Shown: one piece after another, positions 13,688 to 43,367 of the stretch
Layout: each line of letters starts with the position of its first letter
How positions within the stretch are numbered: position 1 is the first letter of the stretch
Virus record (IMG/VR): IMGVR_UViG_3300027969_000058
Location: 50,736 to 114,735 of that record
Strand: one strand, 5' to 3'
Length of the DNA stretch: 64,000 nucleotides
DNA from: a virus
Made by a program: the position numbers and the translations under genes
Notes under the pieces: generated by a model
Told to the model about the DNA's origin: nothing
The model's database searches: none
What the model saw: the letters and a program-made list of their open reading frames with translations, nothing else

Positions 13688-13713
13688 AAATATCCCCTAT
13701 ATTGGATATTTAT
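13686..13713 (-). promoter_or_regulatory. Late-type promoter inside an RBS-occluding inverted repeat
   Basis: ATAAATATCC-N8-GGATATTTAT; 3' arm covers part of SD and AT of ATG. Confidence 0.7.
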
Positions 13714-14402
13714 CCGTTTTCTTTGTAGTACTGATCTACTCTATTACACCACTGTTCTGTCCAGTAGTCAAAGTCTTTGGGTTCAAGTATAAATTCCTGA
13801 TACTGGAAATCTTTACTACACATTAGAATAACTCCTTTGCGTATGTTTGTACCGTAGACTTCGTTGTGCGCCAGTGCATAGGCTGTAAGCTGTAGAAAAT
13901 AGTCTCCAATCCACTCAAGTTTTTTAGGTTTATTTGTTTGTTTATAATCTAAAATACTTTGATCGCCTTCATGCACTCCTACACAGTCAGTAGTACCCGC
14001 ATATAGTTCCGGAAAGTATAACGGAACTTCGTTACCCCATACTTCGTTTACTCTATTGGTCATGCCCTGATCGACAATGATCTTAGCCATAGCATGACTT
14101 TGCTGGCTGAAGGGATTAGTACCTGGGTCAGTTAAGAAACCTTGAGTAACATAGTCTTCAAGATATTTGTGCATACGTGTTCCGCGATTGGCGGCTTCGG
14201 TTACAATCTCTTGAGCTTTAACTTCTCCTACGCTTTTTTTCCAACGTGCAAGTGCTTCACGTGCCTCTGCAGGCTTAGTTTTATCAAGTACTGTGGTAAC
14301 AGAAGGAACTCGATGTCCTTCTGGTGTAGAGTATAATCTACGTCCGTTTACTTGTTGTCTTTCTACTGGTTTATATTGGTAACGTTCTATTAATAATGTC
14401 AT
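13710..14402 (-). CDS. PD-(D/E)XK exonuclease
   Basis: PSVTTVL, RGTRMH, E..L, AGTTD, ILDYK, QLTAYALA. Confidence 0.9.
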   Translation of the reverse strand: MTLLIERYQYKPVERQQVNGRRLYSTPEGHRVPSVTTVLDKTKPAEAREALARWKKSVGEVKAQEIVTEAANRGTRMHKYLEDYVTQGFLTDPGTNPFSQQSHAMAKIIVDQGMTNRVNEVWGNEVPLYFPELYAGTTDCVGVHEGDQSILDYKQTNKPKKLEWIGDYFLQLTAYALAHNEVYGTNIRKGVILMCSKDFQYQEFILEPKDFDYWTEQWCNRVDQYYKENG

Positions 14403-14407
14403 AGTAC

Positions 14408-14436
14408 ATTATATAGCATTACCACAGTAAGGTCAA
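14408..14436 (-). promoter_or_regulatory. sigma70 promoter, leaderless transcript
   Basis: TTGACC-N17-TATAAT, 5 nt before ATG 14402. Confidence 0.8.
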
Positions 14437-14744
14437 CCTAATTTTTTTGCGGCTGCTCGTTTTGCTGAAGTATTAACAGCGTTTTTGGCTTTTTGCTTAT
14501 CACCAACTGTGCCGGGTTCTTGTTTCTTAGCTTTAGTTTTGATAGTTATACCATTTTCGTCAAAGTTATCAACAATATTTTTTAACTCGGGAGTGGAATC
14601 AAATTGAGCCTTAAAGGCATCATAGTCAACATCTTGACCTGTTACATTCTGCATCATTTTGGAAACTGCTGGCCAGGCGAACTGTGCTGTTACGCCCTTG
14701 CTATCGGCCCTGCTTTGTAAGTTAGTAAGGATGCGGATAATCAT
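14433..14744 (-). CDS. Hypothetical protein, probably made as -1 frameshift extension of upstream gene
   Basis: In -1 frame of 14759..15676; own ATG lies in a 10-bp hairpin. Confidence 0.7.
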   Translation of the reverse strand: MIIRILTNLQSRADSKGVTAQFAWPAVSKMMQNVTGQDVDYDAFKAQFDSTPELKNIVDNFDENGITIKTKAKKQEPGTVGDKQKAKNAVNTSAKRAAAKKLG

Positions 14745-14768
14745 ATCCGCATCTTCATTTACTTTTTT
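14730..14768 (-). other. Programmed -1 ribosomal frameshift signal
   Basis: A_AAA_AAG (14768-14762), 8-nt spacer, hairpin GATGCGGATA-TGAT-TATCCGCATC (14753-14730). Confidence 0.75.
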
Positions 14769-15676
14769 TTTGAACTAAGGATAGTGCCTAATCTACGGCT
14801 GTATTCAATACTTTCACGTTTTGCTCGGCCTGCTGCTTCTTCGCCGCCTGTTGCTGGTTCGCTTGCTGCAAATGCATCGCCTGCGCCTGTGTCTGGCTCG
14901 CCCATTGTTGAAGGCATCTCTCCGCCTAAGTCTGACATAGGAGCAGCGCCACCCGCACCCATTGGTGCTTCTTCGCCTGTTAGGATACTAACTGCCTGAG
15001 CCAACGTTGTACGATGGCTTTCTAAACTTGTATATAATTCTTCTAATGCTGGTTTAACTTTATCGCTAAATTGTTGGCTGATATCGCTACCTAATTCGTC
15101 TCTTATAGAGTCAACTAATTCTAACATTGATTCTGCTTTCATGCCGGACACATCTTCGAGCCAGCCTGTAATACGGTCGACCATATCACGAGCACTCATA
15201 ATTAGAGCTGCTTTTTCTTCTTCGCCTTCTGTTAATGTACGCTCACTTAGTACGCCACGTAACACTTCTAATGCCTCTTCGATACTTTCTTTCTTTGCCA
15301 TCTTAGTTGCTGTGACGTCTTTAACTTTCTCAGCATCTTTGCCAAACTTCTTTTTAAATGTACCGTCCGCTGCATCCATGCCTTTCTTAAACTTGGCCTT
15401 CTTGCTCTTCTCAGCTTCTGAAAGAGTACGCTCTTTAATTTCTTGGCGAACAACACCGAGCATAGCTCTGTGCTTTTGATATTCGTTGTTTTCTAAAACA
15501 CTGTCAAAACTATTAGTTTTTTCAAATGTTCCAAGTTTTTCTGAAAGTTGTAGTTGTACTTGGGAAAGTTGTGCATCGCTGAACTTGTTAAGTGTCAAGC
15601 GATAACCAAACTTATTGGCTAAACTTTCGTTAAGTGTATCACTGCTGATTTTATTCGATAATTCTCTGATTTGCAT
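14759..15676 (-). CDS. Probable prohead core/scaffold-like head protein
   Basis: Helical, E/K-rich, LxE sites (LNE, LSE, LTE); MQIREL N-terminus; TAAATA at 15705-15710. Confidence 0.55.
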   Translation of the reverse strand: MQIRELSNKISSDTLNESLANKFGYRLTLNKFSDAQLSQVQLQLSEKLGTFEKTNSFDSVLENNEYQKHRAMLGVVRQEIKERTLSEAEKSKKAKFKKGMDAADGTFKKKFGKDAEKVKDVTATKMAKKESIEEALEVLRGVLSERTLTEGEEEKAALIMSARDMVDRITGWLEDVSGMKAESMLELVDSIRDELGSDISQQFSDKVKPALEELYTSLESHRTTLAQAVSILTGEEAPMGAGGAAPMSDLGGEMPSTMGEPDTGAGDAFAASEPATGGEEAAGRAKRESIEYSRRLGTILSSKKK

Positions 15677-15712
15677 GTTAGCATCCTAAAAGACTTGTTA
15701 TTGTTATTTATG

Positions 15713-16144
15713 TCAAAACATAGATTTAAACTTAGCGGCAATTTTTGTTTTAGCTTGTCTTGCTCGGGAGTCTGTGAGTTCCCAGCGCCACAAGGCAAGG
15801 TCGCGTCTGTCTAAATCTTTAACTGTAATGTATCTATGTTTAAAAATAGTAGCATCTGTTGCGTTCTGCTGATAACTACTATCTAATTGTTTTATTTCAT
15901 TGTAGGCTGTTAATTTATTAATACTAAAATATTTAGCTGCCATTAATGCGCAGGCCTTAAGGTTAAACTTATCAACTAAGTAACCTCCAATCCTGAGTAA
16001 ATTCCAGGTTCCTTGGTTATTTCGCTTAATTCTAAATCCAGCGTAAACCAAACTACCATCATTTAGCAATGCCACTGGTAATTCTTTCTTAAATTCTTCT
16101 TCAAGAAAGTTCTCTAATTTTTCCGCTTGTTTTTTAAAATTCAT
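15713..16144 (-). CDS. Hypothetical phage protein
   Basis: MNFKKQ start overlapping upstream stop. Confidence 0.65.
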   Translation of the reverse strand: MNFKKQAEKLENFLEEEFKKELPVALLNDGSLVYAGFRIKRNNQGTWNLLRIGGYLVDKFNLKACALMAAKYFSINKLTAYNEIKQLDSSYQQNATDATIFKHRYITVKDLDRRDLALWRWELTDSRARQAKTKIAAKFKSMF

Positions 16145-16334
16145 TGGCAATTACCTTAGGATTACTGTCTCCTATCTTAATTACCAAACTTTTGCGTATG
16201 AGGCCTTCGATTATGAATTGATCATGCTCGTTAAAACTATTTAGGTAAGACACAGATTCAAGACGCCTAAGCATGGCATCTTCTTCTCGTGTAGTCCAAA
16301 TTACAAAATTGCCAATTAACTCGTTAATTTTCAT
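16134..16334 (-). CDS. Small hypothetical protein, head cluster
   Basis: MKINELI N-terminus; ATGA overlap. Confidence 0.7.
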   Translation of the reverse strand: MKINELIGNFVIWTTREEDAMLRRLESVSYLNSFNEHDQFIIEGLIRKSLVIKIGDSNPKVIANEF

Positions 16335-17155
16335 AATCCTGCCATCTTACGTATATGGGAAATATCTTCTACCGGTGAAGCTGATACTGCTACGTCTTTG
16401 CCTACAAAGTTAGGCTTAACGTCTGCACCGCCTGGACCACCTTGCCCTGGCATTTGTAATTGTAATTTGCCAGTTTCATCTTGCGAAATTTTTGGTGCGT
16501 TAGGATTGGTTTTATCAATCTGTGTTTGAACACCGGTTGTTGGATTTTGCAGGACGGTCTGCTTGTCATCATCCTTGGCTACTTTTAGCATGCCGCTTTC
16601 TTCGTCCACTGTGTCATCTGCCTTGCCAAAAGGATGCACTTCTGCCCACTGTGTGCCTTGCTTCTGTACCCATTTACCAGGTTTAAACTTACTGCGAATA
16701 ATGCCGTGTAACTTCAATGCTTGCTCTGGGGTATCTCTAAATCCTTGGGCGCGAGCTTCACGCTCAACTTGATTAGAAACCATTTTCTTTTTAAGTCTGC
16801 CATCGGCATAAATGTAAAGTAAATTAGATTCGTCACTCATGTCTCTTTCACGTCGACCAAACCCTGTTTCGCTGGATTGTTTATCTCTGTCATATGCAGA
16901 TGCACTGCCTTGACTGCGATATAGTGCTTCTTGTTCAGTGCTTTCGCGTTCCATACGATCGTTATAGTCGTTGGCCATTTGTTCTTTCTTGTCTAAATAA
17001 TTTTGATATCTCTGTTGATCACGCTCAGTTGCATCTGGTGCGTCTGCTTTGGCCTTTAGATAGGTAGCATGTGATTGATCTAATGATCGACGGTGTTGTG
17101 CAGCCACACTGTTTGGATTATATGCTTCCGCTGGTTTAATTTGATTTACTTTCAT
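16331..17155 (-). CDS. Probable head-internal protein
   Basis: Charged, low complexity; C-terminal IRKMAGL. Confidence 0.55.
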   Translation of the reverse strand: MKVNQIKPAEAYNPNSVAAQHRRSLDQSHATYLKAKADAPDATERDQQRYQNYLDKKEQMANDYNDRMERESTEQEALYRSQGSASAYDRDKQSSETGFGRRERDMSDESNLLYIYADGRLKKKMVSNQVEREARAQGFRDTPEQALKLHGIIRSKFKPGKWVQKQGTQWAEVHPFGKADDTVDEESGMLKVAKDDDKQTVLQNPTTGVQTQIDKTNPNAPKISQDETGKLQLQMPGQGGPGGADVKPNFVGKDVAVSASPVEDISHIRKMAGL

Positions 17156-17868
17156 TTGTGTTCTCCAAGGCTCAGTGCCTTATCTTGTAATTTATATAAG
17201 TGCTGTTGTAATTGTCCAATAAAGCCTTTAGCACGTAACACTTTAAATGCTACATTCTCTACACTGAACTCACCACCTTGTTCTAATCCTGACTGACGCA
17301 ATTTTTTAATTTCTTGTTGCACTTCTTTAGCTTCTTCAAAACTATCAGTAGTAAGTGCCTGCATTATTTTATTTAAGTAATTCTCAACTTTTGCAGTAAC
17401 GTCGCTGTCGCTGATTTTAATAGTGCTCATAGTTGGTTCACTAAGCCACTTGTTGTCAAGTATACTGTAGACTCCAAGACTGTGATGCTCTTGACTATCT
17501 GGTTGTACATATAACTCTACGTCAATGCCTTTGATTTTAATATCGTGTATATGATTATACTGATTTTTCTTTGCATCGTAAAGCGGTTTGAGTAATAGCT
17601 CTCGTTCAGCGGGTACTGTAACTATTAAGTGTAAATCTAAATCGCTTTGTGGAGTGTAGGAATATGCTGCGTTGGATCCTGATATTGTAACATCTTTGAG
17701 CAATAGTTCAGGGATATCTATGAATTCGATAAAATGTTTTGCTATTTGTAATAGCTTATATCTTATCTGGGGATGTAGTATACTACCTTGCCATAAGAGA
17801 GGATTCAGTTCTTTATGAAATTGAACAGCTGAGTCGACTATGCCTTCTGTGAATTCTCTTATATACAT
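17152..17868 (-). CDS. Pol-beta-superfamily nucleotidyltransferase
   Basis: ISGSNAAYSYTPQSDLDLHL (GS...DxD), VELYVQ; MYIREFTE N-terminus. Confidence 0.8.
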   Translation of the reverse strand: MYIREFTEGIVDSAVQFHKELNPLLWQGSILHPQIRYKLLQIAKHFIEFIDIPELLLKDVTISGSNAAYSYTPQSDLDLHLIVTVPAERELLLKPLYDAKKNQYNHIHDIKIKGIDVELYVQPDSQEHHSLGVYSILDNKWLSEPTMSTIKISDSDVTAKVENYLNKIMQALTTDSFEEAKEVQQEIKKLRQSGLEQGGEFSVENVAFKVLRAKGFIGQLQQHLYKLQDKALSLGEHK

Positions 17869-17887
17869 CGTGCATTATTTAACAGAA

Positions 17888-18235
17888 TTATAAGCCGAGG
17901 AACTTTAATACATGTGGGAAGTTAATAGCGTTGATCCAGCCTGCGCCTGCGGCAAACGCTAAACCTGCCATAGCATACAGTGTGACTTTGTTTTTGATTT
18001 TTTCTAAACCGTTGATCTTTTCAAAGATCTCGTCGTGTTGCTTGTTGCTGGCATCTGCCATCTCACACAGTTTCTTGTCCAGCAAGTCACGGGTGTTGTC
18101 CAAACAATCGTGCATGTCTTTGACGTCTGCCTTGAGTTCGTCAAGTTTACTTTCTATTTGGTGTACTTTGGTTTCAACTACCGCTACACGCTCTGGTAAC
18201 GTAGCCAATTGTGCTACTGCTTCTTTTGTGGCCAT
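17888..18235 (-). CDS. Coiled-coil protein with C-terminal TM (XhlA/holin-like)
   Basis: ERVAVVETKV coiled coil then LYAMAGLAFAAGAGW; GGAG RBS before ATG 18235. Confidence 0.55.
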   Translation of the reverse strand: MATKEAVAQLATLPERVAVVETKVHQIESKLDELKADVKDMHDCLDNTRDLLDKKLCEMADASNKQHDEIFEKINGLEKIKNKVTLYAMAGLAFAAGAGWINAINFPHVLKFLGL

Positions 18236-18335
18236 AATTAGGCATTCTCCAATGTTATAAGTCAGGGGTTCGCTCAGAACCATGTGCCTACTGTATGATT
18301 GAAATGCCTAATGTGTAAAATGCCTACTGTTATAT

Positions 18336-18743
18336 TTAGCTTCTTAAGTAAAAAACAATATTTCGAGATGCCCCATCGGTTACAAATACATTGTAGTTTT
18401 GTTCAATACTTTCGCTAAGTCCTGCGATATACGGTACTCCGTTAAAGTCAGTTATCATATAGCCTACAGGATTCTCGTTATGTTCAAATAATCGATCACG
18501 TTCTGTATAAAAGTCAAATGCCCATATTCTAATAATTTCGTTAGTATTAAATCCTAATGCAGTGCCAACGCTGTTGATTAACTGTGGCGGAGTAGTAAAC
18601 GATATATTTGCCCTAATACCAAGTGTTTGTATAACTGTTTGAAAGTTTTGTTCTTTCCAGCGTAATTCTTCTTTGCCCAGTTCGCTTCTATATTGCCCGG
18701 TATGTGTAATATCAACTGTGGTGTATAAACTGTAATTCATCAC
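18336..18743 (-). CDS. Conserved phage hypothetical protein
   Basis: TTVDITHTG, EQNFQT, GVPYIAGLSE; TAAATA just upstream. Confidence 0.7.
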   Translation of the reverse strand: MMNYSLYTTVDITHTGQYRSELGKEELRWKEQNFQTVIQTLGIRANISFTTPPQLINSVGTALGFNTNEIIRIWAFDFYTERDRLFEHNENPVGYMITDFNGVPYIAGLSESIEQNYNVFVTDGASRNIVFYLRS

Positions 18744-18758
18744 GTATTTAACAGAGGT

Positions 18759-18785
18759 AAAAAAGCCTGCTATAAAAGCAGGCTT
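18759..18785 (-). terminator. Intrinsic terminator
   Basis: AAGCCTGCT-N5-AGCAGGCTT followed by T-run on minus strand. Confidence 0.75.
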
Positions 18786-18814
18786 AGTCTTCCCATCCCG
18801 GGGTAAGTCGTTAA

Positions 18815-19183
18815 TTACTTAGCTGGTGTAAAGATTGCTTCGATACTAACAGTAACACCTGCAATAGCCATGTCAGCATCAGCAACTGTTAGGTCGCCTG
18901 TGCCTTGAACACGCAAGAATACATTGTCAGTTGTTCCGCTAACGAAAGCTGAACCGTCTGCTGTACCAACTGCTGCAACTGTGAATGCTGAATCACCTGT
19001 TCCACCAGAACCGTGTGCAGTTGTGATGTAACCAATGATTGAAGACAAGTCAGCGTCTGTTAAGTTTGTACCTGCAACCTTAACGATCAGCTCGCGGCCG
19101 ACGTCAGCTTGGTTGATTTGGTGCTTTAAATAATTTGCGCCAACTGTTGTTGCGCCTACTACTACTGAAATATTTGATGGCAT
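18815..19183 (-). CDS. Small virion protein (capsid-decoration-like)
   Basis: T/A/G/V-rich; GAGGAG RBS; own TAAATA promoter and terminator. Confidence 0.55.
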   Translation of the reverse strand: MPSNISVVVGATTVGANYLKHQINQADVGRELIVKVAGTNLTDADLSSIIGYITTAHGSGGTGDSAFTVAAVGTADGSAFVSGTTDNVFLRVQGTGDLTVADADMAIAGVTVSIEAIFTPAK

Positions 19184-19294
19184 AATAATTCTCCTCTGGA
19201 TATGCTATTCAACTACTCACACTCTGTGAGCCTTTGTAATAATATTTATCCAAACTCTGGAAAAATGTTCAGTAAGAGTACAGTTTTAGTGACT

Positions 19295-19948
19295 TTATTT
19301 TAATGGGTTTGACAGTACTTGATCAATATCTTGTAGTAGGTCAAATTGCGGCATATATGTTCTATATGCATTTAAAATGCGGGCGGCAGTGTTTGATACG
19401 TCACTATCCACTGGATTATTGTAGCTTAATAATCTGCGTATTTCTTTGTAAAGTGCTGTGTTAATTCCCAGAGCCTGTTCAAGCTGCATTAAAAAATAAA
19501 CATTGCGACTGCTTTCGCTGTTAATGGTGTATAACCATCCATTTAGTGCCATGGTAGGTAAATGTATGCGTTCACGAGCTTTACGTGCATCTGATGAATG
19601 GAATATTTGTTCAACTCGTCGAGGGTCTGCTTGTACAAAATATACTAAATTATGCAGGTCAGTTGCACCGGATCTAAACTCTGTATAGTTACTATACATA
19701 CAGGTAGTCTTAGCATATCTTTCTGCAATTTTTTTACCGTTCTTTAATCTTGATAAGAATTCAATGGTAAGCACAGTAAGGTACAATAATTCGCAGGCAC
19801 CACTGTAGGTTAATTTTAGATCGCTTTCACTGCGTAGCATTCGAGCTTCTTTTAATTCTTTGATAAAGCTCATCATGCCTGTAGGTTTTGATTCATAGTC
19901 TAAACTATGGCCGCCTGCCATTAACGCTCTTTCCATTTCTGTAAACAT
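19295..19948 (-). CDS. Conserved phage hypothetical protein
   Basis: MERALMAGGHSL, FIKELKEARM; TAATG coupling. Confidence 0.7.
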   Translation of the reverse strand: MFTEMERALMAGGHSLDYESKPTGMMSFIKELKEARMLRSESDLKLTYSGACELLYLTVLTIEFLSRLKNGKKIAERYAKTTCMYSNYTEFRSGATDLHNLVYFVQADPRRVEQIFHSSDARKARERIHLPTMALNGWLYTINSESSRNVYFLMQLEQALGINTALYKEIRRLLSYNNPVDSDVSNTAARILNAYRTYMPQFDLLQDIDQVLSNPLK

Positions 19949-21099
19949 TATGTAGGTGTCCAGCGTTTACGAGGTACAAGTTTAACGTTGCCAAATTGTT
20001 TGTTTTTATCGGCATAGCGTACACGCCCTTCACCTTCAGTATCCCAAATTTCTCCTTGGGCACCGCTTTCAATTTGTTGTATAACGTCGTCTTTAAGTTC
20101 CATTATCTGAGTAACAAGACTAAACACAGCTTCTAATGCATTTTGATTTAGCTGTGCTAACTCTTTAATCTTGGTCTGCTTATTAGTACTGACCTTGCTG
20201 GTAGTAAGCCAATTAAAGAAGGCATTAGCATTTAGATTAGCGAGCTGTTTGGCCTTAGCAGTTTGGTTAACAAAGGTATAGAGTATATTTTTAAGGTCGC
20301 CAAGTCCTGGAGTTTCTTGTAAAAAACTATCTATACCCTTAGCGTTCTGTTTAAGATATGCTTCAACTGCTGCGATTTTATCGCTGCCGACACTCACAGG
20401 TGAGGAATTATAAACTGGGCCTTGTACAATTAATTGTGCCGTGCCGTTAAACATGCTGAAGTCGTCTAATGGCTTTTGTTCATCGTCTGGCATGCCAAAC
20501 TGTGGAAAAAATGCATGTCCCACAACCATTACCTGTGCGTTGGCAATACGTTGCCCAAGTTCACTGTCTGCTCTTACGTGATAGCAAGTCTTTGATTTAG
20601 GATTAGGACAGAATGTATAAACACCTTGTTGATCTACTGCTGGTTGTTGTAAAAATAATCCGTCAGCGTAGACAAAGCCCACAAAGTCACGGGGTGTAGC
20701 TTTGTCAAATAACGGATATAGCGATGCAAATTGTTTGGCAAATTGATCACGTGCTCGCTTGTCTTCTGGGGTCTTAGGTGTACCGCTTTTGTTAGCAATA
20801 AAATCTTCTACTTCTTCTGGGCTTGTGGTCATTGCACCACGGCTCCAACCATTATGTCCAGCTAACACTAACGGGCCGCCTCGCGTTGCACGGCCCCAAT
20901 ATATTTGAGGATTACCGTCCCATTTCATACGTACAGTTTGACTGCCTTCTTCTGTGGCAATTTCTCTAACGTGTGCAAGAGCTTCAAGCGTTCCATTACT
21001 GCCATGGAAGAATACGAGATCTTCCAGATGGTTAAATGCACGGCCAAGTTTTTTCTTGGCAGCTACCTCTGCTTCTTTTAAGAATTCATTTGCTCTCAT
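19948..21099 (-). CDS. KxDG-motif protein (DUF6267-like; ligase/covalent nucleotidyltransferase-like)
   Basis: HLEDLVF, MKWDGNP, ADGLF, EGEGRV, KLVPR; MRANEFLKE N-terminus. Confidence 0.6.
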   Translation of the reverse strand: MRANEFLKEAEVAAKKKLGRAFNHLEDLVFFHGSNGTLEALAHVREIATEEGSQTVRMKWDGNPQIYWGRATRGGPLVLAGHNGWSRGAMTTSPEEVEDFIANKSGTPKTPEDKRARDQFAKQFASLYPLFDKATPRDFVGFVYADGLFLQQPAVDQQGVYTFCPNPKSKTCYHVRADSELGQRIANAQVMVVGHAFFPQFGMPDDEQKPLDDFSMFNGTAQLIVQGPVYNSSPVSVGSDKIAAVEAYLKQNAKGIDSFLQETPGLGDLKNILYTFVNQTAKAKQLANLNANAFFNWLTTSKVSTNKQTKIKELAQLNQNALEAVFSLVTQIMELKDDVIQQIESGAQGEIWDTEGEGRVRYADKNKQFGNVKLVPRKRWTPT

Positions 21100-21848
21100 A
21101 TTTTATTCAACACGTTACGGAACCATTCTTGTGGTCCTTCTTCGGCAACTTTATCTTGCTTTTTTGGACTCCAATTAGGATCCTCTTCGGCTCGGGCAAG
21201 TAATGCCTGTGCTTGCTCTTCAGGCAATGATTTCAATATAGCTTCTACACTACCAAGACTCTTTGATGTTGCCTTTGGACTAATAAGTCGCTGTGCTATT
21301 TCATCAAGGTCATCGCTGACAAATTCGCCTTTTTTACCTTCAGCGGTTCTACTGAACAAGCCTTGCCAAGCTGACCACATATAACCTTTTTGTTTGGCCA
21401 AGATGGCCATGACCAACTGTTTGTTTACACCTTTATATGGGCTTTTATCTGGAATATCATGTGTGTGAAATTTACTGATTCTGTCTGCCTTAGGAGTAAT
21501 CATTATATCTACTTGGTGGGCTTCGGTACCAACTGGCACACGAACATGTACGTTGATACCAGTTTGTGCAGTTTGTAAACCCTGAGCTGAAATAAAATCA
21601 CTTAACGCTCTACGTGCAGATTTGGCATCTTTTGATTTAAAAAAATTAACTACTTGTTCTTCGTCAGCAATAACATCCATGTCACCACTTTTCTTGCCAG
21701 CTTTTGGAGTAGCTGCTGATCCAACTGGGATCACAGAAAGGCCTGCGCCTGCTACTGCTCGTTGTACTTTATTTAAAATCTCTGGCACCAATGCGTGATC
21801 AAATGGTGTAACATCCGGAAATACATTTCCGCCTTCAAGCAGTATCAT
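21096..21848 (-). CDS. Pol-beta-superfamily nucleotidyltransferase
   Basis: VGSA...SGDMDV, QVDIM; LLEGGNVF N-terminus. Confidence 0.75.
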   Translation of the reverse strand: MILLEGGNVFPDVTPFDHALVPEILNKVQRAVAGAGLSVIPVGSAATPKAGKKSGDMDVIADEEQVVNFFKSKDAKSARRALSDFISAQGLQTAQTGINVHVRVPVGTEAHQVDIMITPKADRISKFHTHDIPDKSPYKGVNKQLVMAILAKQKGYMWSAWQGLFSRTAEGKKGEFVSDDLDEIAQRLISPKATSKSLGSVEAILKSLPEEQAQALLARAEEDPNWSPKKQDKVAEEGPQEWFRNVLNKI

Positions 21849-22095
21849 CTCTGTTTTCCTGTATTTTTTTAATGCCGCGCTTAAATTTCGCTGGCTCTGC
21901 TGTTCTAATAGCGTTTATAAATCGACGCTCAAGCTCGGCTGCTGTTTCAAGGTCGTAATTTTCTCTAATTAACGATAATAAGTTAATTGCACTTTCAATA
22001 AGGTTAGAACCGCGACTTTCGATTACTAAATCTTTGTTACGATTTACACCTAAATCACTCAATTCTTGTAGGATTGACCTTGTACTTTTTCTCAT
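21835..22095 (-). CDS. Conserved phage hypothetical protein
   Basis: TRSILQEL...IESRG...ELERRFINAIR; TAAATA at 22116-22121. Confidence 0.75.
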   Translation of the reverse strand: MRKSTRSILQELSDLGVNRNKDLVIESRGSNLIESAINLLSLIRENYDLETAAELERRFINAIRTAEPAKFKRGIKKIQENRDDTA

Positions 22096-22226
22096 GTTTC
22101 AGCATTCCTTTGCTATATTTACCGTTTTTGCAAAGTAAAATAAAAATGTTGCAATGCCAGGTAAAAAGACTAAATATATTAGTAGAAACCATGAGTCTCT
22201 ACACACACTTACACAAGGATTATAGC

Positions 22227-22406
22227 ATGAAATTCATATCAGAGCAAATGATTAGAGTAATGGAACGTTTATCAGAAATGTTTCCAGGATCTAATTATCA
22301 AAGCAGCTTAGACGCTTATCTAAGCACCAAAGGCATTACCGATGCCGCCCAGTTGGAAAACTATATCCAACAATACCACTATTCTCAAAAGGAAAAAAAT
22401 ATATGA
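22227..22406 (+). CDS. DUF3563-like small protein
   Basis: LDAYLS...DAAQLENYIQQY; AAGGA RBS. Confidence 0.55.
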   Translation: MKFISEQMIRVMERLSEMFPGSNYQSSLDAYLSTKGITDAAQLENYIQQYHYSQKEKNI

Positions 22407-22507
22407 AAAAAATTATCAACACAATTTACGAAGGTCTAATTAACTGGGCAGAAATGATCCATGAGTATCGTCAAAGCTCTGCAAGCAGATATCATTATTG
22501 GAAGTAA
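22403..22507 (+). CDS. 34-aa microprotein
   Basis: MKKIINTIYEGLINWAEMIHEYRQSSASRYHYWK; AAGGA RBS, ATGA overlap. Confidence 0.6.
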   Translation: MKKIINTIYEGLINWAEMIHEYRQSSASRYHYWK

Positions 22508-22509
22508 TC

Positions 22510-22593
22510 ATGGACATAGAATTAGTAGCAATTCAGATTATTGTGTTTGGCATAATAATTCTTGTATACATGACGCAGGAGTTTTTTAAATGA
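22510..22593 (+). CDS. 27-aa single-TM microprotein
   Basis: MDIELVAIQIIVFGIIILVYMTQEFFK. Confidence 0.55.
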   Translation: MDIELVAIQIIVFGIIILVYMTQEFFK

Positions 22594-22688
22594 ATTTTAT
22601 AGAAACTCTCATAATGTTACTACGCTGGAAACAAGAAGGATGGGAAGTACATCCTATTATCACTGGCGAGTTCGAAGGCTGGGTTTAA
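22590..22688 (+). CDS. 32-aa microprotein
   Basis: MNFIETLIMLLRWKQEGWEVHPIITGEFEGWV; AGGAG RBS, ATGA overlap. Confidence 0.6.
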   Translation: MNFIETLIMLLRWKQEGWEVHPIITGEFEGWV

Positions 22689-22701
22689 ATCACCATATCG
22701 C

Positions 22702-22730
22702 TTTACAGACACTACAGTTGTCTGTATAAT
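22702..22730 (+). promoter_or_regulatory. sigma70 promoter
   Basis: TTTACA-N17-TATAAT. Confidence 0.75.
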
Positions 22731-22765
22731 AAATACATTACACATATACACACAAGGAGAATAAT

Positions 22766-23041
22766 ATGTTCACACCAGATTTCTACATTGATTTATTTCA
22801 ATCATCAAAGCGTCAGTTAACCAACCAAGTTTACAAAGACGACACACTTAACAAAGCCTGCAATGCATTTATCGACGCTCAAACAGCGTTTGCTAAAATG
22901 ATGGTTAAAAATTACATTGATTTATCTGCACACAGTGCGGACGCTATCAGTAAAGTTTTGTTCCCTAAAAAGGAAGAAACAGTCAAGTCCAAGACTGCTA
23001 AAAAATCAGACAATACAGACATTAACACACAAGGAGAATAA
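22766..23041 (+). CDS. Phasin-like amphipathic protein
   Basis: YIDLFQSSKRQL...FIDAQTAFAKMM helices; AAGGAG RBS. Confidence 0.45.
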   Translation: MFTPDFYIDLFQSSKRQLTNQVYKDDTLNKACNAFIDAQTAFAKMMVKNYIDLSAHSADAISKVLFPKKEETVKSKTAKKSDNTDINTQGE

Positions 23042-23042
23042 T

Positions 23043-23306
23043 ATGTCATTTGAAACAAAATTACCAGAAGTTAAATTCAACAAGAACGGCTACGAAATCC
23101 GCACAGATATCTTGGGTATGGCCAAGGATTTAGTTAGCGATGACTTTCATGTCAAGTTCCAGGGTTGGGAAATGACTGCCGCTCGTGACGAAAAGACTGG
23201 TCAGATCGTTACCACAGTGGGCATGCCAAGCCACCCAGGTCTTGAGAAAGTTTTGGAAACAGCAGAGAAAATGTACGCCTTTGTCAATACTGGCGCTAAA
23301 AAATAA
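23043..23306 (+). CDS. Conserved phage hypothetical protein
   Basis: KNGYEIRTDILGMAKD...P..EKVLETAEKMYAFV; AAGGAG RBS. Confidence 0.75.
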   Translation: MSFETKLPEVKFNKNGYEIRTDILGMAKDLVSDDFHVKFQGWEMTAARDEKTGQIVTTVGMPSHPGLEKVLETAEKMYAFVNTGAKK

Positions 23307-23346
23307 TTATATACGCTTATAGAGCAAACTATATTATACTATAAAC

Positions 23347-23373
23347 AAAAAGGACTCTTCGGAGTCCTTTTTT
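23347..23373. terminator. Bidirectional intrinsic terminator
   Basis: AAAAAGGACTC-TTCG-GAGTCCTTTTT between convergent genes. Confidence 0.9.
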
Positions 23374-24007
23374 ATTGCCACGCTACCATTTTAAATCGTT
23401 CACGTGGAATATTGAAATAGTCACACTTCCAATGGCTCTGTTCAAAGAAGTCCAAGTGATGCCACTTGTCCTTATGTTCAAGTATTTGCTGTGCCGCATC
23501 ATCCCAGTCTATAGTAGCCAGTTTAGCCTGTACCTGTAGTTTGCGTACTTGCACTTCTTCATAGTCAAAGCCATCGTATTCCCAGTGTAGGACTTCAAAA
23601 GCGTTACCTGCTCTATCTACATAATCCATTGAAAAGTCTAAACCCCACTTGGGTCGCAGGGCTATTAACTTATTAACTAACGGAATAGTCTTGGCCCAGA
23701 ACCGTAACTCTGCCAATGCTTCACCTGCGTAGGCCTTGCGTTCAAACAGTAGGCTGTGATTTAATACAGCACCTTCAACACGATCTAACTGTGTAAACCA
23801 ATCTTGTTTGACTGCACGGATATGTTCTCTATGTTTCTTAGGTTTAACCCAGTTGCCGTAGGCAAAGTGTTGTTCAATAACAGTTAGATCATAACCGTTT
23901 TGATCAAACAGGGCAAGATCCTCTGGTGTTGGAAGATATACTAACTTGGCTATGGGCTTGTCCCAGTAACCGTTTGGATTTAACAGATTATCTGTTAAGT
24001 GAATCAT
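23372..24007 (-). CDS. Hypothetical phage protein
   Basis: FDQNGYDLT, NHSLLFERK, PKWGLDFSMDY. Confidence 0.7.
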   Translation of the reverse strand: MIHLTDNLLNPNGYWDKPIAKLVYLPTPEDLALFDQNGYDLTVIEQHFAYGNWVKPKKHREHIRAVKQDWFTQLDRVEGAVLNHSLLFERKAYAGEALAELRFWAKTIPLVNKLIALRPKWGLDFSMDYVDRAGNAFEVLHWEYDGFDYEEVQVRKLQVQAKLATIDWDDAAQQILEHKDKWHHLDFFEQSHWKCDYFNIPRERFKMVAWQ

Positions 24008-24012
24008 TTAAC

Positions 24013-24225
24013 TTAGGTAGTTGTAGTCCAAGGACGACCTTCAACAAGTCCACCGGTGTTGGCATTGTCTGTAACAGCATTGCCTGTGTATTGTGTGGGC
24101 AATTGTGTAATATTGTAGGTTGCTCGAGGATTGCCATCTGCCGCACGTTTGGTCGCTGCCAAATCAAGTTTAGCCTTTTGACGTAATTCTTTAGTTGATA
24201 ATGTTGATATGCCGTTAAGTGCCAT
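24013..24225 (-). CDS. Small late protein
   Basis: MALNGIS...GGLVEGRPW; GAGG RBS; TAAATA at 24243-24248. Confidence 0.7.
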   Translation of the reverse strand: MALNGISTLSTKELRQKAKLDLAATKRAADGNPRATYNITQLPTQYTGNAVTDNANTGGLVEGRPWTTTT

Positions 24226-24245
24226 GTTATACCTCTTCCTAATAT

Positions 24246-27200
24246 TTATCCTATCCAAATCTGCTTAGAAGATCCCGAACCTGCTATCACTCGTACTTCG
24301 CCAGACTCACCGCCCAACTTCAACGATGCAGGTTCATTCGAGTACTCTTGTTTGAACAGTGTATAGCCCTTGGTGAAACTGTAGCCCATAATATCACCAA
24401 CGTGATTTACAGGATAGTACATTCGAGTTACACCAAGATTGTCAATTAGATCAAGATCTACATATGAACTATTGATGTCACTTCTACTGCTCTGTGTTAG
24501 ATAATCAGCAGTAATGTTAATTGTAGGATCTTGAACTATGTTAGATACTATGGTGTTGCTGGCTTCAGCCATCAAGTCTGACACAGTGACATTGCTCACT
24601 GCCATAGTCATACTTGTTGCCACTTCTGCACCTAACTGATTGACTGAGAACACTTCAACAAAGTTGAATATCTGCTCAATGGCAGTGTCAATGTTGTAAG
24701 TAACAAACGGTATGTCATTGAAGTTGTACTTGACAGATGTACTGAAAATAGTAATCACTGCCAATACTGCATCATTGACATTGTTACTGATAATAGTATT
24801 AGATGCTACACTGCTCAGTTCGTTATCGCTTGTTGATGCAACTGAGATAATAACTGCCACTTGAACATCAGCATCGAACACCAACGCTGTGGTATCAACG
24901 AAGTTGAATATTTGGACAATGGCTTCTTCGGCAACTAACTCAACAAACTGTACAGTTTCAACGTTACTGGTTATCTCATTGCTGACAATGTCTACTACAG
25001 CCAAGTTAGTTGTGTCAGTGTATGAGTATACTACTGCTACTTGTACATCAGCGTCAACTTCATTATTTGAAACATCAACGACATTGAATGATTGTATGAC
25101 TATGTCTTCAGCAACTAACTCAACAAACTGTACAGTTTCAACATTGCTGGTTATTTCAGTGCTGACAATGTCAACCACAGCAAGGTTAGCACTATCGTCA
25201 TAGGCATATACTATTGATACTTGTACTTCGGCTGCTATTTCATTATCTGAAATATTAACAACATTGTATGATTGTATGACTATGTCTTCAGCAACTAACT
25301 CAACAAACTGTACAGTTTCAACATCGCTGGTTATTTCAGTGCTGACAATGTCTACTACAGCAAGGACGGCACTATCAACTACATTAACTGCTCTGCTGAT
25401 CAATACAGTAGCATCTATCTCACTGTCGGAAGTATCAACATAGTTGAATATCAGTTGAATTAGATCTTCTGCGGCAACTTCTACGTCAGCATCAGAAACA
25501 ACAAAACTTGTTATGGCGTTATCGCCTGTTGCACCAATGTCGGCAATGTATCCAAATTCTGCGCCGAGGTTGTGTATCTGTACAATGCCAAGGTCTGTTA
25601 CGTTGGTATTATCTAACAACAGGCCTGTACCAGTGACATATGGTCCATCAGTTGGGCCATTTAGTGCATCTGATACAGATATTGTTATTGTATAAGAACT
25701 GTCTGGCTGTTCTTCTACAACTATATCACTGATAGTTCCATAATAGACAAACGGTGAGCCGTCAATTAACAATCGCTGGCCACGGTTTGGAGCAAATACT
25801 TTATCTTCTATGGCTTTGAGCAGTGCGGCCACATCGCCAGGTTGTCCATCACTTCTGTCTTCACCTGCCAGCACAACGTCTGCCGTGTCACCAATCTTGG
25901 CATATTCGAACGGCACTTGTGGTACTGCCAACCGTACTTTGATGGCTTTGTCGTAGAGATCCAGATCAGCGGATTCTGGATAATTGAATATTCGTTTCTC
26001 AATTGCTGTTGCAGCCAACTCGAAGAACTGTATAGTTTCTACATTGCTGGTTATCTCATTGCTGACAATGTCTACTACAGCCAATACAGCAGTGTCATAA
26101 TATACATGTACTAATTTTACTACTACATCTGCATCTAATTCAACATCAACAGTGTTATCAACAACGAATATCTGCTGGATAGTATCTGTAGCAGCCAATT
26201 CAAAGAACTGTACAGTATCAACGTTGCTGGTTATCTCGTTACTGACAATATCTACCAAGGCCAATACAGCAGTGTCATCAATGCTGAATGACTTGCTGAT
26301 TACCACTGTGGCATCAATTTCTAAGGCTGTACTATCAACATAGTTAAATCGTTGTTCAATGGCTTCTGTAGCAGCAAGATCTAAGAATGAACTGTCTTGT
26401 ACATTGCTGGTTATCTCATTGCTGACAATATCTACTACAGCCAACACAGCATTGTCACTGAACGAGTAGGCATTTGATATAACAACAGTAGATTCAATTT
26501 CTAAATCAGTTGTGTCTACATAATTGAATCGCTGTTCAATTGCTTCATTGACACCCATGTCAAGTGCTATGGTATTGTCAAGTTCAGTTATGTACTCAAT
26601 GCTCTGTATGTCTACCAATGCCAACACAGCACTGTCGTCAACTGCATAGATTGCCGATGTAGTAAATGTTGATGTTATCTCAATGTCTGCTGAATCGGCA
26701 ATATTGGATACTTTTATAATGGCGTCAGTAGCAGTTAAGTCTAAGAATGAACTGTCTTGTACGTTACTTGTGTATTCAATGCTCTGTATGTCTACTAATG
26801 CCAACACAGCACTATCAGCAAATACATATGCTAATGATATTACAGTTGTTGCGGCTATTTCTGTGTTGGCACTGTCAACATAATTAAATCTCTGCTCAAC
26901 TGCTTCTGTAGCGGCAAGATCCAAGAATGAACTGTCTTGAACAGTGCTGGTTATCTCATTGCTGACAATATCTACTACAGCCAACACAGCACTATCTGCA
27001 AATACATATGCTAATGAAACTACCGTTGTGGCATCAATTTCTAATGCTGTACTATCAACATAGTTGAATCTCTGCTCAACTGCTTCTGTAGCGGCAAGAT
27101 CCAAGAATGAACTGTCTTGTACATTGCTTGTGTATTCAATACTCTGTATATCTACCAGGGCCAATACAGCACTGTCAACATATATGAACAACTGGCTAAT

Positions 27201-33116: not shown

Positions 33117-33131
33117 AGCAGCCTACCTCCT

Positions 33132-41947: not shown

Positions 41948-43147
41948 ATGATAGATAAACAACCATTCGAAGCATTACTAAAAAACCTTAAAGATTCTGG
42001 CAAGTATCGTGTGTTTAACGATATTATGCGTGAAAACGGCAAGTTCCCCCAGGCCATATGGTATGGGCCATACGCTATAAAGAACATTGTAAACTGGTGC
42101 TCAAACGATTACTTGGGCATGGGTCAGCATAAGGTTGTTATAGATGCTATGCGTACAGCATTGGACATGACAGGTGCTGGCTCAGGCGGTACTCGCAACA
42201 TTGCAGGTACCAGTCACTATCACGTTGCGTTAGAACACGAGCTTGCAACACTGCATAAGAAAGAACGGGCATTGTTATTCTCAAGTGCTTATGTGGCCAA
42301 CGAGTGGACACTGATAGCACTGGCTAAGATCATTCCCAATATAGAATATATCAGCGACAGTAATAATCACAACTCAATCATTGTGGGCATACAGCACAGT
42401 CGTGCAAAGAAAAGTATATTCAAACATAACGATATGCAGATGTTAGAGGAACTGTTGGAAGTCAGTGTGGCTGCAGGTAATAAACCCTGCATTGTATTTG
42501 AGTCAGTATACTCAATGGATGGCGATGTGGGCATGATCAAAGAGATATGTGACCTTGCTGATAAGTATGGTGCTATGACCTACATTGATGAAGTACATGC
42601 TGTGGGCCTGTATGGGGCAACAGGTGCAGGCAAAGTTGAGGAGTACGGGCTACAGGATCGTGTTGACATAGTTAACGGTACACTTGGTAAAGCATTTGGA
42701 GTACAGGGCGGATACATTGCCTGTGACAGTATCGTAGCTGATGCTATCCGTAGTATTGCCGCTGGCTTTATCTTTACAACATCTATGAGTCCTGTAACCT
42801 GTGCTGGCGCACTGGCTGCTGTTAAGTACTTAAAAAGTCATGGTGAGCTACGTGAGCAACATCAAGACCGTGCCCGCAAGTTAAAATATAGATTGATCAA
42901 AGCTGGCATACCCGTTATGGCGTGTAGTACTACACACATTGTACCTGTGCTGGTTGGGGATGCTAAACGTGCCAAAGCAATGAGCGATGCATTGATTAAC
43001 GATCACAACATCTATGTGCAGGCCATCAACTATCCCACAGTGGATGTGGGAACGGAGAGGTTGCGATTTGCTCCCACTCCGTTTCACGATGATGGTATGA
43101 TCGAAGACTTGGTTCAAGCCCTCGTCAAAGTGTTTAACACATACTGA
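41948..43147 (+). CDS. hemA: 5-aminolevulinate synthase (PLP, C4/Shemin pathway)
   Basis: [66 protein letters not shown]. Confidence 0.93.
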
Positions 43148-43367
43148 GAACTTGTGTAACACCAAATACTAATGCAGCTCGTAACTGCAAGTCAGCGCCA
43201 GCAGATTCTAACTTCTCAGTGTTGATCAAGTCTTCAAGCAGGGCACGAGCTTCGTCTTGTGAAACTTGTCCGTTCTGTAGAGCTTCTGCTATTTGTAGAG
43301 CATATTGAGCACGTTCAGCTGCCCAAGGTTGCCCACTGTTAATCACTTCATGCAGTACTGAGCTCAT
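43134..43367 (-). CDS. Small helical hypothetical protein
   Basis: MSSVLHE; ATGA overlap. Confidence 0.65.

What the first reader, a model, noticed from the sequence alone, without database searches (positions are those of the whole stretch)
14433..15676. Programmed -1 frameshift fusing a head-core gene to the downstream ORF
Seen: the 305-aa ORF ends TCA AAA AAA AAG TAA, so the slippery heptamer A_AAA_AAG sits right before the stop. After 8 nt comes a perfect 10-bp hairpin (GATGCGGATA-TGAT-TATCCGCATC). The -1 frame reads KK-VNEDAD-MIIRIL straight into the 103-aa ORF, whose ATG is buried in that hairpin. Known: A_AAA_AAG plus a 3' stem-loop is the dnaX/IS-type signal. Inference: 305-aa and ~414-aa forms are made at a fixed ratio. 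Phage frameshifts are best known from tail chaperone and capsid/tail-tube genes, so one in a putative prohead-core gene is notable. The junction VNE resembles a prohead-protease site.
Basis: partly seen in the sequence, partly recalled or inferred. Interest (0 to 1): 0.8.

Follow-up and report, generated by a model that had tools for sequence, protein, structure and literature searches.

The report
Conserved -1 recoding site, jumbo phage
A run of nine A's at the end of a late gene of an uncultured freshwater jumbo phage almost certainly lets about 109 extra residues from the next reading frame be added to a share of the protein, and every relative examined keeps this arrangement, so it is a well-supported new example of a known kind of gene-expression trick rather than a new mechanism.

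Summary
The 305-aa ORF A (14759-15676) ends TCA AAA AAA AAG TAA. A perfect 10-bp hairpin follows after 8 nt. The -1 frame reads KK-VNEDADMIIRIL into ORF B (14433-14744).

All 81 related IMG/VR loci (ORF A identity 79-38%) keep an A8-A11 run, a TAA stop and an open -1 frame of 100-120 codons. In 29 of 52 distinct junctions ORF B has no ATG/GTG/TTG in its first 20 codons, and the peptide right after the shift ([V/I]-x-E, helix 1) is conserved. ORF B must therefore be made as a C-terminal extension, giving 305-aa and 414-aa products.

The nine A's are conserved at synonymous positions. The phage encodes tRNA-Lys(CUU). A second conserved A9G site in the same genome has no hairpin. These three points favour RNA-polymerase slippage. 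The hairpin (covariation in the near clade, canonical spacing) and the adjacent stop favour ribosomal -1 frameshifting. I think both contribute.

"Head-core gene" is not supported by synteny. In a complete 383-kb relative the scaffold-position gene lies elsewhere. A conserved T4-type late promoter, a leader-like N-terminus and a T4-type prohead protease in relatives fit a virion-internal protein. This is a new member of a known kind.

The parts
15705..15710 (-). TAAATA box (CATAAATA here, gTATAAATA in distant relatives), resembling a T4-type late promoter, 29-34 nt upstream of the ORF A start
   Evidence: Present at -28 to -36 in 52 of 52 distinct related loci. The likeness to the T4 late-promoter consensus TATAAATA rests on established knowledge, not on a test here.
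15684..15687 (-). Shine-Dalgarno AGGA of ORF A
   Evidence: An AGGA/AGGG is seen upstream of the start, mostly 6-10 nt away, in the related loci listed (read by eye, not tallied). ORF B has no equivalent.
14759..15676 (-). ORF A, 305 aa (P0001). It is all-helical with a disordered Gly/Pro/Met-rich stretch (236-287) and a C-terminal helix KRESIEYSRRLGTILSSKKK. This is the zero-frame product.
   Evidence: 2949 metagenome homologues at E <= 0.001; the 120 listed are almost all about 300-310 aa and nearly all end in a SSKKK-type tail. AF2 model pLDDT 70.7. phrog_14154 'virion structural protein' E 3.4e-8 over residues 116-237.
14762..14773 (-). Slippery tract TCA AAA AAA AAG: an A9 run (14763-14771) plus G14762. 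It contains the in-phase heptamers A_AAA_AAA and A_AAA_AAG.
   Evidence: Among 52 distinct junctions the run is A9 in 41, A10 in 9, A8 in 1 and A11 in 1. The codon before the first AAA (before the run in L032) ends in A in 51 of 52 (TCA 47, CCA 3, CAA 1), while the neighbouring codon varies freely.
14759..14761 (-). Zero-frame stop TAA directly after the slippery tract
   Evidence: TAA in 52 of 52 junctions, always within two codons of the run.
14730..14753 (-). 10-bp stem-loop GATGCGGATA-TGAT-TATCCGCATC, 8 nt after the heptamer (12 bp if a G-U and an A-U pair are added)
   Evidence: In the near clade 9 of 12 pairs show changes on both sides, and 0 of 500 shuffles reach the observed score. Downstream stability is enriched in 42 of 52 junctions.
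14436..14762 (-). The -1 frame extension, 109 codons (VNEDAD... to ...AAKKLG). It comprises the [V/I]-x-E junction motif, a small winged-helix-like alpha/beta domain (residues 1-78), a disordered linker and a basic C-terminal helix. It includes the annotated 103-aa ORF B (14433-14744 with its stop).
   Evidence: E3 is invariant and L8, L12, W30, Y47, F50, F67, G71 are conserved from the first residues after the shift. AF2 pLDDT 74.5. The top VIA matches are winged-helix domains at Z <= 6.2.

Best explanation
The A9G tract at the end of ORF A is a conserved programmed -1 recoding signal. Most expression events stop at TAA and give the 305-aa helical protein. A set fraction continue in the -1 frame and give a 414-aa protein carrying an extra winged-helix-like domain and a basic tail. 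ORF B is not an independent gene.

I think slippage occurs at two levels, and both give the same protein (...SSKKK-VNEDAD...). First, RNA polymerase slips on the nine A's and adds one A to part of the transcripts. This is inferred from the selected run length and from a hairpin-less sister site. Second, ribosomes shift -1 on A_AAA_AAA/A_AAA_AAG, helped by the stem-loop 8 nt downstream and by the adjacent stop. This is inferred from hairpin covariation and spacing.

Shown here: the sequence features and their conservation, the lack of a start codon for ORF B in most relatives, and coding conservation across the junction. Inferred: that slippage occurs, its level, and the share of each mechanism.

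The gene is a late gene. Its products are probably virion-internal, but its function is unknown.
For: Recoding is real:
- 81 of 81 IMG/VR loci (ORF A identity 79-38%) keep the run, the TAA and an open -1 frame of 100-120 codons.
- 29 of 52 distinct junctions have no ATG/GTG/TTG in the first 60 nt of the ORF B frame, 37 of 52 have no ATG there, and one has no start codon at all.
- Residues encoded between the stop and the window's ATG are conserved (E3 invariant, L8 and L12 at 90% or more).
- ORF A has a conserved SD and ORF B has none.

RNA-polymerase component:
- The run is 9 or longer in 51 of 52 junctions, conserved at synonymous positions outside the heptamer.
- Four other in-phase A_AAA_AAG heptamers sit in ordinary genes of the same record.
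- The only two runs of 9 or more in 115 kb are both A9G sites followed by long -1 ORFs.
- The second site is conserved in about 40 distinct junctions and has no downstream structure.
- The phage encodes tRNA-Lys(CUU) as well as tRNA-Lys(UUU). The review PMC5009743 links two lysine tRNAs with use of polymerase slippage in Thermus dnaX.
- That review describes high-efficiency bacterial RNA-polymerase slippage in vivo at runs of 9 A/T. Separately, a 9-A cassette gave 40% frameshifted product in reporter cassettes in PMC3711429, by an unassigned mechanism.

Ribosomal component:
- The stem-loop shows compensatory changes in the near clade.
- The spacer in the window is 8 nt. In most near-clade relatives the predicted stem, with its weaker outer pairs, starts 4-10 nt after the A-run.
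- Stable structure is enriched after the run.
- The direction is always -1, which is the PRF criterion of PMC3711429.
- The stop is adjacent in 52 of 52 junctions.
Against: - No expression data exist, so neither the fusion protein nor heterogeneous transcripts have been seen.
- In the distant clade the hairpin sits 10-24 nt from the run, a single-structure model is not significant, and a few loci have no structure (L042, L051, L032).
- No in-frame A-B fusion was found among 184 ORF B relatives, so independent proof that the fused protein is functional is lacking.
- On the opposite strand the hairpin plus T9 scores weakly as a terminator.
- The host and its tRNA-Lys set are unknown.
Confidence: 0.55

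Rival explanations
1. Purely ribosomal -1 programmed frameshifting of the dnaX/IS type. Tandem tRNA-Lys slippage on A_AAA_AAG is stimulated by the 3' stem-loop and the adjacent stop, and transcripts are faithful.
For: An in-phase heptamer, an 8-nt spacer and a 10-bp stem with covariation in the near clade. The direction is -1 in all orthologues. TAA is adjacent in 52 of 52 junctions.
Against: - It does not explain why the two A's and the codon upstream of the heptamer are fixed.
- It does not explain why the last base may be A or C, both far less shifty in E. coli (PMC5009743).
- The sister site needs no structure.
- No upstream SD-like element is present.
- A phage tRNA-Lys(CUU) should hold AAG firmly.
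Confidence: 0.2
2. Purely transcriptional slippage (programmed transcriptional realignment), as in Thermus thermophilus dnaX or Shigella mxiE. The polymerase adds one A on the A9 template run and normal translation of A10 mRNAs gives the fusion. The hairpin has an unrelated role.
For: The run length of 9 or more is conserved at two independent sites. The second site has no structure. Both lysine tRNAs are encoded. A T4-type late promoter implies a host-type multisubunit polymerase (inference). Literature on 9-A/T runs.
Against: A downstream RNA structure cannot act on a polymerase that has not yet transcribed it, yet the hairpin is conserved with compensatory changes at frameshift-typical spacing. 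Orthologues never switch to the +1 direction.
Confidence: 0.18
3. There is no recoding. ORF A and ORF B are separate genes (ORF B starting at the ATG in the hairpin loop), or the frame break is a homopolymer sequencing or assembly error in a single gene.
For: The window itself has an ATG at 14742-14744. Homopolymers are error-prone in sequencing.
Against: Most relatives lack any start codon near the beginning of the conserved ORF B frame, and there is no SD. The peptide upstream of the ATG is conserved. The same frame relation appears in 81 independent IMG/VR assemblies, and where the run is A10 the change is a G-to-A substitution, not an insertion. Three further metagenome contigs carry the same tract followed by TAA. 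The homologous proteins listed are almost all about 300-310 aa and nearly all end in a SSKKK-type tail.
Confidence: 0.05

Closest known systems
Escherichia coli dnaX tau/gamma -1 ribosomal frameshift
   Same: An A_AAA_AAG heptamer in phase, a 3' stem-loop a few nucleotides downstream, and two products sharing an N-terminus at a set ratio.
   Different: In dnaX the shift gives the shorter product and uses an upstream SD-like stimulator. Here the shift gives the longer product, there is no SD-like element, the run is nine A's, and a cognate tRNA-Lys(CUU) is encoded by the phage.
Thermus thermophilus dnaX (and Shigella mxiE, Citrobacter rodentium tssM) transcriptional slippage on A/T runs
   Same: A run of nine A's in the mRNA sense, the length at which bacterial RNA polymerase slips efficiently (PMC5009743). 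Two lysine tRNAs are present. The extended product depends on an added base.
   Different: In the accounts read here no 3' RNA structure is named for the T. thermophilus dnaX, Shigella or chlorobial dnaX slippage sites; the tssM paper was not opened. Here a hairpin with covariation follows at frameshift-typical spacing, and the direction is fixed at -1 in every orthologue.
Phage structural-gene frameshifts (lambda G/GT tail chaperone, T7 gene 10A/10B, Lactobacillus phage A2 major head protein)
   Same: A late phage gene gives a minor C-terminally extended form through a -1 shift near its stop.
   Different: This is a different, uncharacterised gene family in uncultured jumbo phages, with a different slippery sequence (A9G). 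The downstream ORF is a separate folded domain that exists as a free-standing, leader-bearing protein in more distant relatives.
T4 internal proteins with a capsid targeting sequence, cleaved by the gp21 prohead protease
   Same: Relatives encode a gp21-type protease (PF03420). ORF A and several other proteins start with an M-[KR]-x-x-E-[FL]-like leader. A [V/I]-x-E motif is kept at the junction in every peptide read. T4-family proteases cleave after Glu (PMC5694885).
   Different: No sequence homology to T4 internal proteins or to gp22 was found. Packaging and cleavage are untested. Delivery of a domain by frameshift fusion is not known for T4.

Membership tests
-1 programmed ribosomal frameshift signal (dnaX / IS3 type) | In-phase X_XXY_YYZ slippery heptamer | tested here: met
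   A_AAA_AAG at 14762-14768, with A_AAA_AAA one codon upstream. An in-phase A-rich heptamer is present in all 52 junctions.
-1 programmed ribosomal frameshift signal (dnaX / IS3 type) | -1 frame open and under protein-coding selection from the shift site onward | tested here: met
   100-120 open codons in 81 of 81 loci. Residues are conserved from position 3 after the shift.
-1 programmed ribosomal frameshift signal (dnaX / IS3 type) | Stimulatory RNA structure about 5-9 nt 3' of the heptamer, supported by covariation | tested here: inconclusive
   Met in the near clade, which includes the window: 9 of 12 pairs have changes on both sides and 0 of 500 shuffles reach the score. In the distant clade the hairpin lies 10-24 nt away and the single-structure model is not significant. 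Three or four loci lack structure.
-1 programmed ribosomal frameshift signal (dnaX / IS3 type) | Upstream Shine-Dalgarno-like stimulator (dnaX and several IS elements; not universal) | tested here: not met
   An SD-like tetramer lies 3-22 nt upstream of the run in only 1 of 52 junctions.
-1 programmed ribosomal frameshift signal (dnaX / IS3 type) | A single tRNA-Lys(UUU) reading AAG weakly, the basis of the high shiftiness of A_AAA_AAG | tested here: inconclusive
   The phage record encodes both tRNA-Lys(UUU) and tRNA-Lys(CUU). The host set and expression levels are unknown.
Programmed transcriptional realignment (RNA-polymerase slippage) | Homopolymeric A or T run of 8-9 or more under selection | tested here: met
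   A9 in the window. The run is 9 or longer in 51 of 52 junctions and is fixed at synonymous positions. The same holds at the second site.
Programmed transcriptional realignment (RNA-polymerase slippage) | Orthologues do not keep one shift direction (criterion of PMC3711429) | tested here: not met
   The direction is -1 in every site-1 locus and in every run-bearing site-2 locus.
Programmed transcriptional realignment (RNA-polymerase slippage) | Transcripts heterogeneous in run length | not testable with these tools
   No transcript data were available.
T4-type prohead core / scaffolding protein (gp22-like) | Gene sits in the head module next to the prohead protease and major capsid gene | tested here: not met
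   In the complete 383-kb relative G001 the order portal, 298 aa, protease, 364 aa (phrog_10922), major head protein lies at about 164-171 kb. The ORF A homologue lies at about 27 kb.
T4-type prohead core / scaffolding protein (gp22-like) | Sequence or profile similarity to the scaffold-position protein | tested here: not met
   hhalign probability 0.2% against the 364-aa protein and 2.7% against the 298-aa protein. No Pfam or PDB sequence match.
Capsid-targeted internal protein processed by a gp21-type protease | N-terminal targeting leader, cleavage after Glu, protease present | tested here: inconclusive
   A leader-like start occurs on 8 of 151 genes against 0.9% at internal Met positions. 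[V/I]-x-E is kept at the junction in every peptide read (Glu invariant in 50 of 50 aligned). PF03420 protease is present in 5 of 5 relatives. Packaging and cleavage are not testable here.
Winged-helix fold (ORF B domain) | H1-S1-H2-H3-S2-S3 topology with a clear structural match | tested here: inconclusive
   The predicted order H-E-H-H-H-E-E fits. The top VIA matches are winged-helix domains, but Z is 6.2 or less, and the best Foldseek E-value against PDB is 0.12.

The most novel reading that the evidence does not exclude
The frameshift may act as a cargo-loading device. In distant relatives the winged-helix-like ORF B domain is a free-standing protein with its own capsid-targeting-like leader (MRFAEF..., MKLFEV...). 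In this lineage it has lost its start and leader. It would instead be carried into the prohead as a C-terminal extension of the leader-bearing late protein ORF A, at a ratio set by slippage on A9G, and then released by the T4-type prohead protease at the conserved [V/I]-x-E junction. In addition, the lineage uses A9G as a reusable recoding cassette at two or more genes, combining RNA-polymerase and ribosome slippage.
Probability: 0.15. Interest if true: 0.75.

Novelty: new member of a known kind. Interest (0 to 1): 0.52.

Why it matters
- It adds a very well conserved recoding case, supported by thousands of metagenome homologues. It occurs in a group (uncultured freshwater jumbo phages with a T4-type head module) and a gene family where none was known to me or found in the literature searches.
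- Gene callers systematically mis-annotate ORF B as a separate or truncated gene.
- The pair of A9G sites in one genome, one with a hairpin and one without, is a natural test bed for separating polymerase slippage from ribosomal frameshifting.
- If the protease-release idea holds, it would show a new way to dose and deliver an internal virion protein.

Tried and rejected
- blastn and tblastn of the region, ORF A, ORF B, a distant ORF A (L006) and a distant ORF B-like protein (P0138) against 50,697 phage records gave no match. No cultured relative could be examined.
- Pfam gave nothing for ORF A or ORF B. PHROGs gave nothing for ORF B. PDB sequence profiles gave nothing. Rfam gave nothing relevant.
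- The ESM Atlas returned only unnamed viral clusters.
- In-frame A-B fusions were sought with an exhaustive HMMER search of ORF B (184 hits, none at the C-terminus of a protein of about 410 aa) and with a 'longer' word search (none).
- ORF B-like repeats in the window's 2956-aa and 2260-aa proteins were sought and not found.
- Hits of ORF B to giant proteins look like low-complexity matches.
- Termination-reinitiation at TAAATG was rejected because most relatives have no start codon there.
- A sense-strand terminator was rejected because no U-tract follows the hairpin.
- A link between hairpin strength and the last base of the run was looked for by eye, and no clear trend was seen.
Full report
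**Observation.** The feature lies on the minus strand and is exactly as described.
- ORF A (14759-15676, 305 aa, P0001) ends TCA AAA AAA AAG TAA. The A9 run is 14763-14771, the G is 14762 and the stop is 14759-14761.
- Eight nucleotides later a perfect 10-bp stem with a 4-nt loop occupies 14730-14753. The ATG of the 103-aa ORF B (14433-14744, P0002) straddles stem and loop.
- From G14762 the -1 frame reads VNEDADMIIRIL... for 109 codons, so a -1 event gives a 414-aa protein.

**Source.** The window is part of a 114,735-bp IMG/VR virus record. The record has 40% GC and is estimated 33% complete, so it is a fragment of a jumbo phage.

**Is it more than chance?** A9 runs are not improbable by composition; about three T9 runs would be expected in the record. 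Conservation decides the matter.
- ORF A has 2949 metagenome homologues at E <= 0.001. The 120 best are almost all about 300-310 aa, and nearly all end in a SSKKK-type tail.
- A profile-guided scan of IMG/VR returned 81 loci with ORF A identity from 79% down to 38%, on contigs of up to 383 kb.
- All 81 keep an A-run, a TAA and an open -1 frame of 100-120 codons. Three further metagenome contigs carry the same tract (A9G or A10) followed by TAA.
- Among 52 distinct junctions the tract is TCA AAA AAA AAG TAA in 35. The last base is A in 9 or 10 and C in 2. The run is A9 in 41, A10 in 9, A8 in 1 and A11 in 1. The stop is TAA in all 52.
- Where the run is A10, a G-to-A substitution caused it, so the frame relation never changes. 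This rules out homopolymer error.

**ORF B is not an independent gene.**
- In 29 of 52 junctions no ATG, GTG or TTG occurs in the first 60 nt of the conserved frame, and in 37 of 52 no ATG does. In several the first start lies 220-308 nt in, and one has no start codon at all.
- The peptide encoded between the ORF A stop and the window's ATG is conserved. The Glu of [V/I]-x-E is invariant in all 50 aligned sequences, and L8 and L12 are nearly so.
- The AlphaFold model starts its first helix at residue 3 of the extension.
- ORF A has an SD in the related loci listed (read by eye). ORF B has none.
- Public gene callers often start ORF B at an internal Met, giving products of about 70 aa, or at a spurious upstream codon, which shows how often it is mis-annotated.

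**The hairpin.**
- The 50 nt after the run fall in the most stable 5% of local windows in 34 of 52 junctions and in the top 10% in 42 of 52.
- In the near clade (19 sequences including the window), 9 of 12 pairs of the 12-bp stem change on both sides. Pairing is 87.7% against 37-47% when partners are slid, and 0 of 500 shuffles reach the observed values.
- In the window the perfect stem begins 8 nt after the heptamer. In most near-clade relatives the predicted stem, with its weaker outer pairs, starts 4-10 nt after the A-run.
- In the distant clade most loci carry a different stem (GTAGACCCCTTAG...CTAAGGGCTCTAC) or other hairpins 10-24 nt from the run. A single model is not significant there. 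A few loci have no structure (L042, which has A11, and L051, L032).

1. The conserved element is nine A's, not the heptamer.
   - The codon before the first AAA ends in A in 51 of 52 junctions, and the Lys codons are always AAA. The codon one step further upstream varies freely (AGT, AGC, TCT, AAC, AAT, GCA...), and genome-wide Lys usage is 65% AAA.
   - Four ordinary genes of the record carry an in-phase A_AAA_AAG without a long run.
2. The only other run of 9 or more in the 115-kb record is also an A9G in the coding sense. It lies just outside the window (G000 50337-50345), in a 389-aa membrane/coiled-coil protein, and is followed by a 105-codon -1 ORF.
   - About 40 distinct junctions among the relatives keep this second site, almost always again as TCA AAA AAA AAG (CTA in this genome and its nearest relative).
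   - It has no downstream structure: the median percentile is 0.79, and none of 42 junctions falls in the top 10%.
   - Two contigs carry A10 there, which puts the two frames in register.
3. The record encodes 33 tRNAs, including both tRNA-Lys(UUU) and tRNA-Lys(CUU).

The review PMC5009743 is relevant in four ways.
- It attributes the shiftiness of A_AAA_AAG in E. coli to weak pairing of a sole tRNA-Lys.
- It notes that Thermus, with two lysine tRNAs, uses polymerase slippage on a 9-base run.
- It describes high-efficiency RNA-polymerase slippage in vivo at runs of 9 A/T.

PMC3711429 adds three points.
- Programmed transcriptional realignment typically uses homopolymers of 8 or more.
- A 9-A cassette gave 40% frameshifting.
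- A shift direction conserved among orthologues is its criterion for ribosomal frameshifting.

The evidence therefore splits.
- For a polymerase component: the selected run length, the tolerated last base, the hairpin-less sister site and the second lysine tRNA.
- For a ribosomal component: the covarying hairpin at canonical spacing, which cannot influence a polymerase that has not yet transcribed it. The adjacent stop and the invariant -1 direction point the same way.

Each pure model leaves one strong observation unexplained. I therefore favour slippage at both levels (0.55), with pure ribosomal at 0.2, pure transcriptional at 0.18 and no recoding at 0.05. Both routes give the same protein, so only RNA-level data or run-breaking and hairpin mutants can separate them.

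**What the proteins are.**
- ORF A is predicted all-helical, with a disordered Gly/Pro/Met-rich stretch and a conserved C-terminal helix (pLDDT 70.7).
- Its only annotated relative is phrog_14154, 'virion structural protein' (E 3.4e-8). Structure matches are to unnamed proteins of uncultured phages and, weakly, to proteins of the jumbo phages Atu_ph07, RaK2 and PaBG.
- ORF B folds as a small alpha/beta domain whose best matches are winged-helix domains (Z <= 6.2; Foldseek E >= 0.12). A disordered linker and a basic helix follow. The fold assignment is tentative.

**Head-core or not.**
- Five large relatives all encode a T4 gp21-type prohead protease (PF03420).
- In the complete 383-kb genome the head module (portal, 298 aa, protease, a 364-aa protein in the scaffold position, major head protein) lies about 140 kb from the ORF A homologue.
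- ORF A shows no profile similarity to either non-enzymatic protein of that module. The 'head-core gene' label is therefore unsupported.
- Several findings still fit a late, possibly packaged protein.
  - A TAAATA box (gTATAAATA in the distant clade, like the T4 late promoter) lies 28-36 nt upstream of ORF A in 52 of 52 loci.
  - ORF A starts MQIRELS. Eight of 151 genes of the record start M-[KRQ]-x(1-3)-[ED]-[FLIVM], against 0.9% at internal Met positions.
  - More distant ORF B-like proteins are free-standing and carry such leaders (MRFAEF, MRLVEF, MKLFEV).
- T4 uses 10-20-residue capsid targeting sequences, and T4-family proteases cut after Glu (PMC3012670, PMC5694885).
- The conserved [V/I]-x-E at the junction could therefore be a release site. 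This is inference only.

**Comparison with known systems, and novelty.** The site works like dnaX or IS-type frameshifting, like Thermus dnaX-type polymerase slippage, or like both. Functionally it resembles phage structural-gene frameshifts that make a minor extended form. It is a new member of a known kind. The gene family, the phage group and the pairing of two A9G sites in one genome are new as far as the held literature shows. The principle is not new.

**Limits.**
- There are no expression data and no cultured relative.
- The host is unknown.

Noticed in passing
L082:1838-1846 (G000 50337-50345, about 390 nt before window position 1; minus strand): A second A9G site (CTA AAA AAA AAG ACA) lies in a 389-aa membrane/coiled-coil protein, followed by a 105-codon -1 ORF. 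About 40 distinct IMG/VR junctions keep it, almost always as TCA AAA AAA AAG, with a -1 ORF of 103-115 codons (about 40 in some). It has no downstream RNA structure. L150 and L153 carry A10, which puts the frames in register.
   Followed up: yes
G000 17151-34446 (outside the window): An array of 33 tRNA genes, including both tRNA-Lys(UUU) and tRNA-Lys(CUU). This bears on how slippery AAG is during infection.
   Followed up: partly
window 14408-14436 (-): A near-consensus sigma-70-type promoter (TTGACC, 17 nt, TATAAT; 11 of 12 matches) lies directly after the ORF B stop and upstream of the PD-(D/E)XK exonuclease gene (13710-14402). ORF A/B, with its late-type promoter, and the exonuclease probably belong to different temporal classes.
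   Followed up: no
window 15705-15710 (-), and 28-36 nt upstream of ORF A in L001-L081: A T4-late-promoter-like TAAATA box is conserved in 52 of 52 distinct loci.
   Followed up: partly
window 19948-21099, 47773-49188, 16134-16334, 49185-49433, 44270-44989, 52860-53225 (all minus strand); G000 43025-44698: Eight of 151 genes start with an M-[KRQ]-x(1-3)-[ED]-[FLIVM] leader (MRANEF, MRFNEF, MRYSEF, MQIREL, MKINEL...). Among them are an endolysin-like 471-aa protein and a DUF6267 protein. The rate at internal Met positions is 0.9%. The leader resembles the T4 capsid targeting sequence.
   Followed up: partly
P0134, P0138, P0181, P0232, P0233 (metagenome proteins): The ORF B-like domain also occurs at the N-terminus of larger proteins of 261-771 aa, behind the same kind of leader. 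P0181 ends with KESMEYMR, reminiscent of the C-terminal RESIEYSR motif of ORF A.
   Followed up: partly
window 14728-14771 (+): Read on the plus strand, the same hairpin followed after 7 nt by T9 scores as a weak intrinsic-terminator-like site against antisense transcription.
   Followed up: no
L168 (G001 158000-177000): The complete 383-kb relative has a T4-ordered head module: portal, 298-aa protein with GGDDMG repeats, gp21-like protease, 364-aa phrog_10922 protein and major head protein. This places the lineage among distant T4-like jumbo phages.
   Followed up: partly
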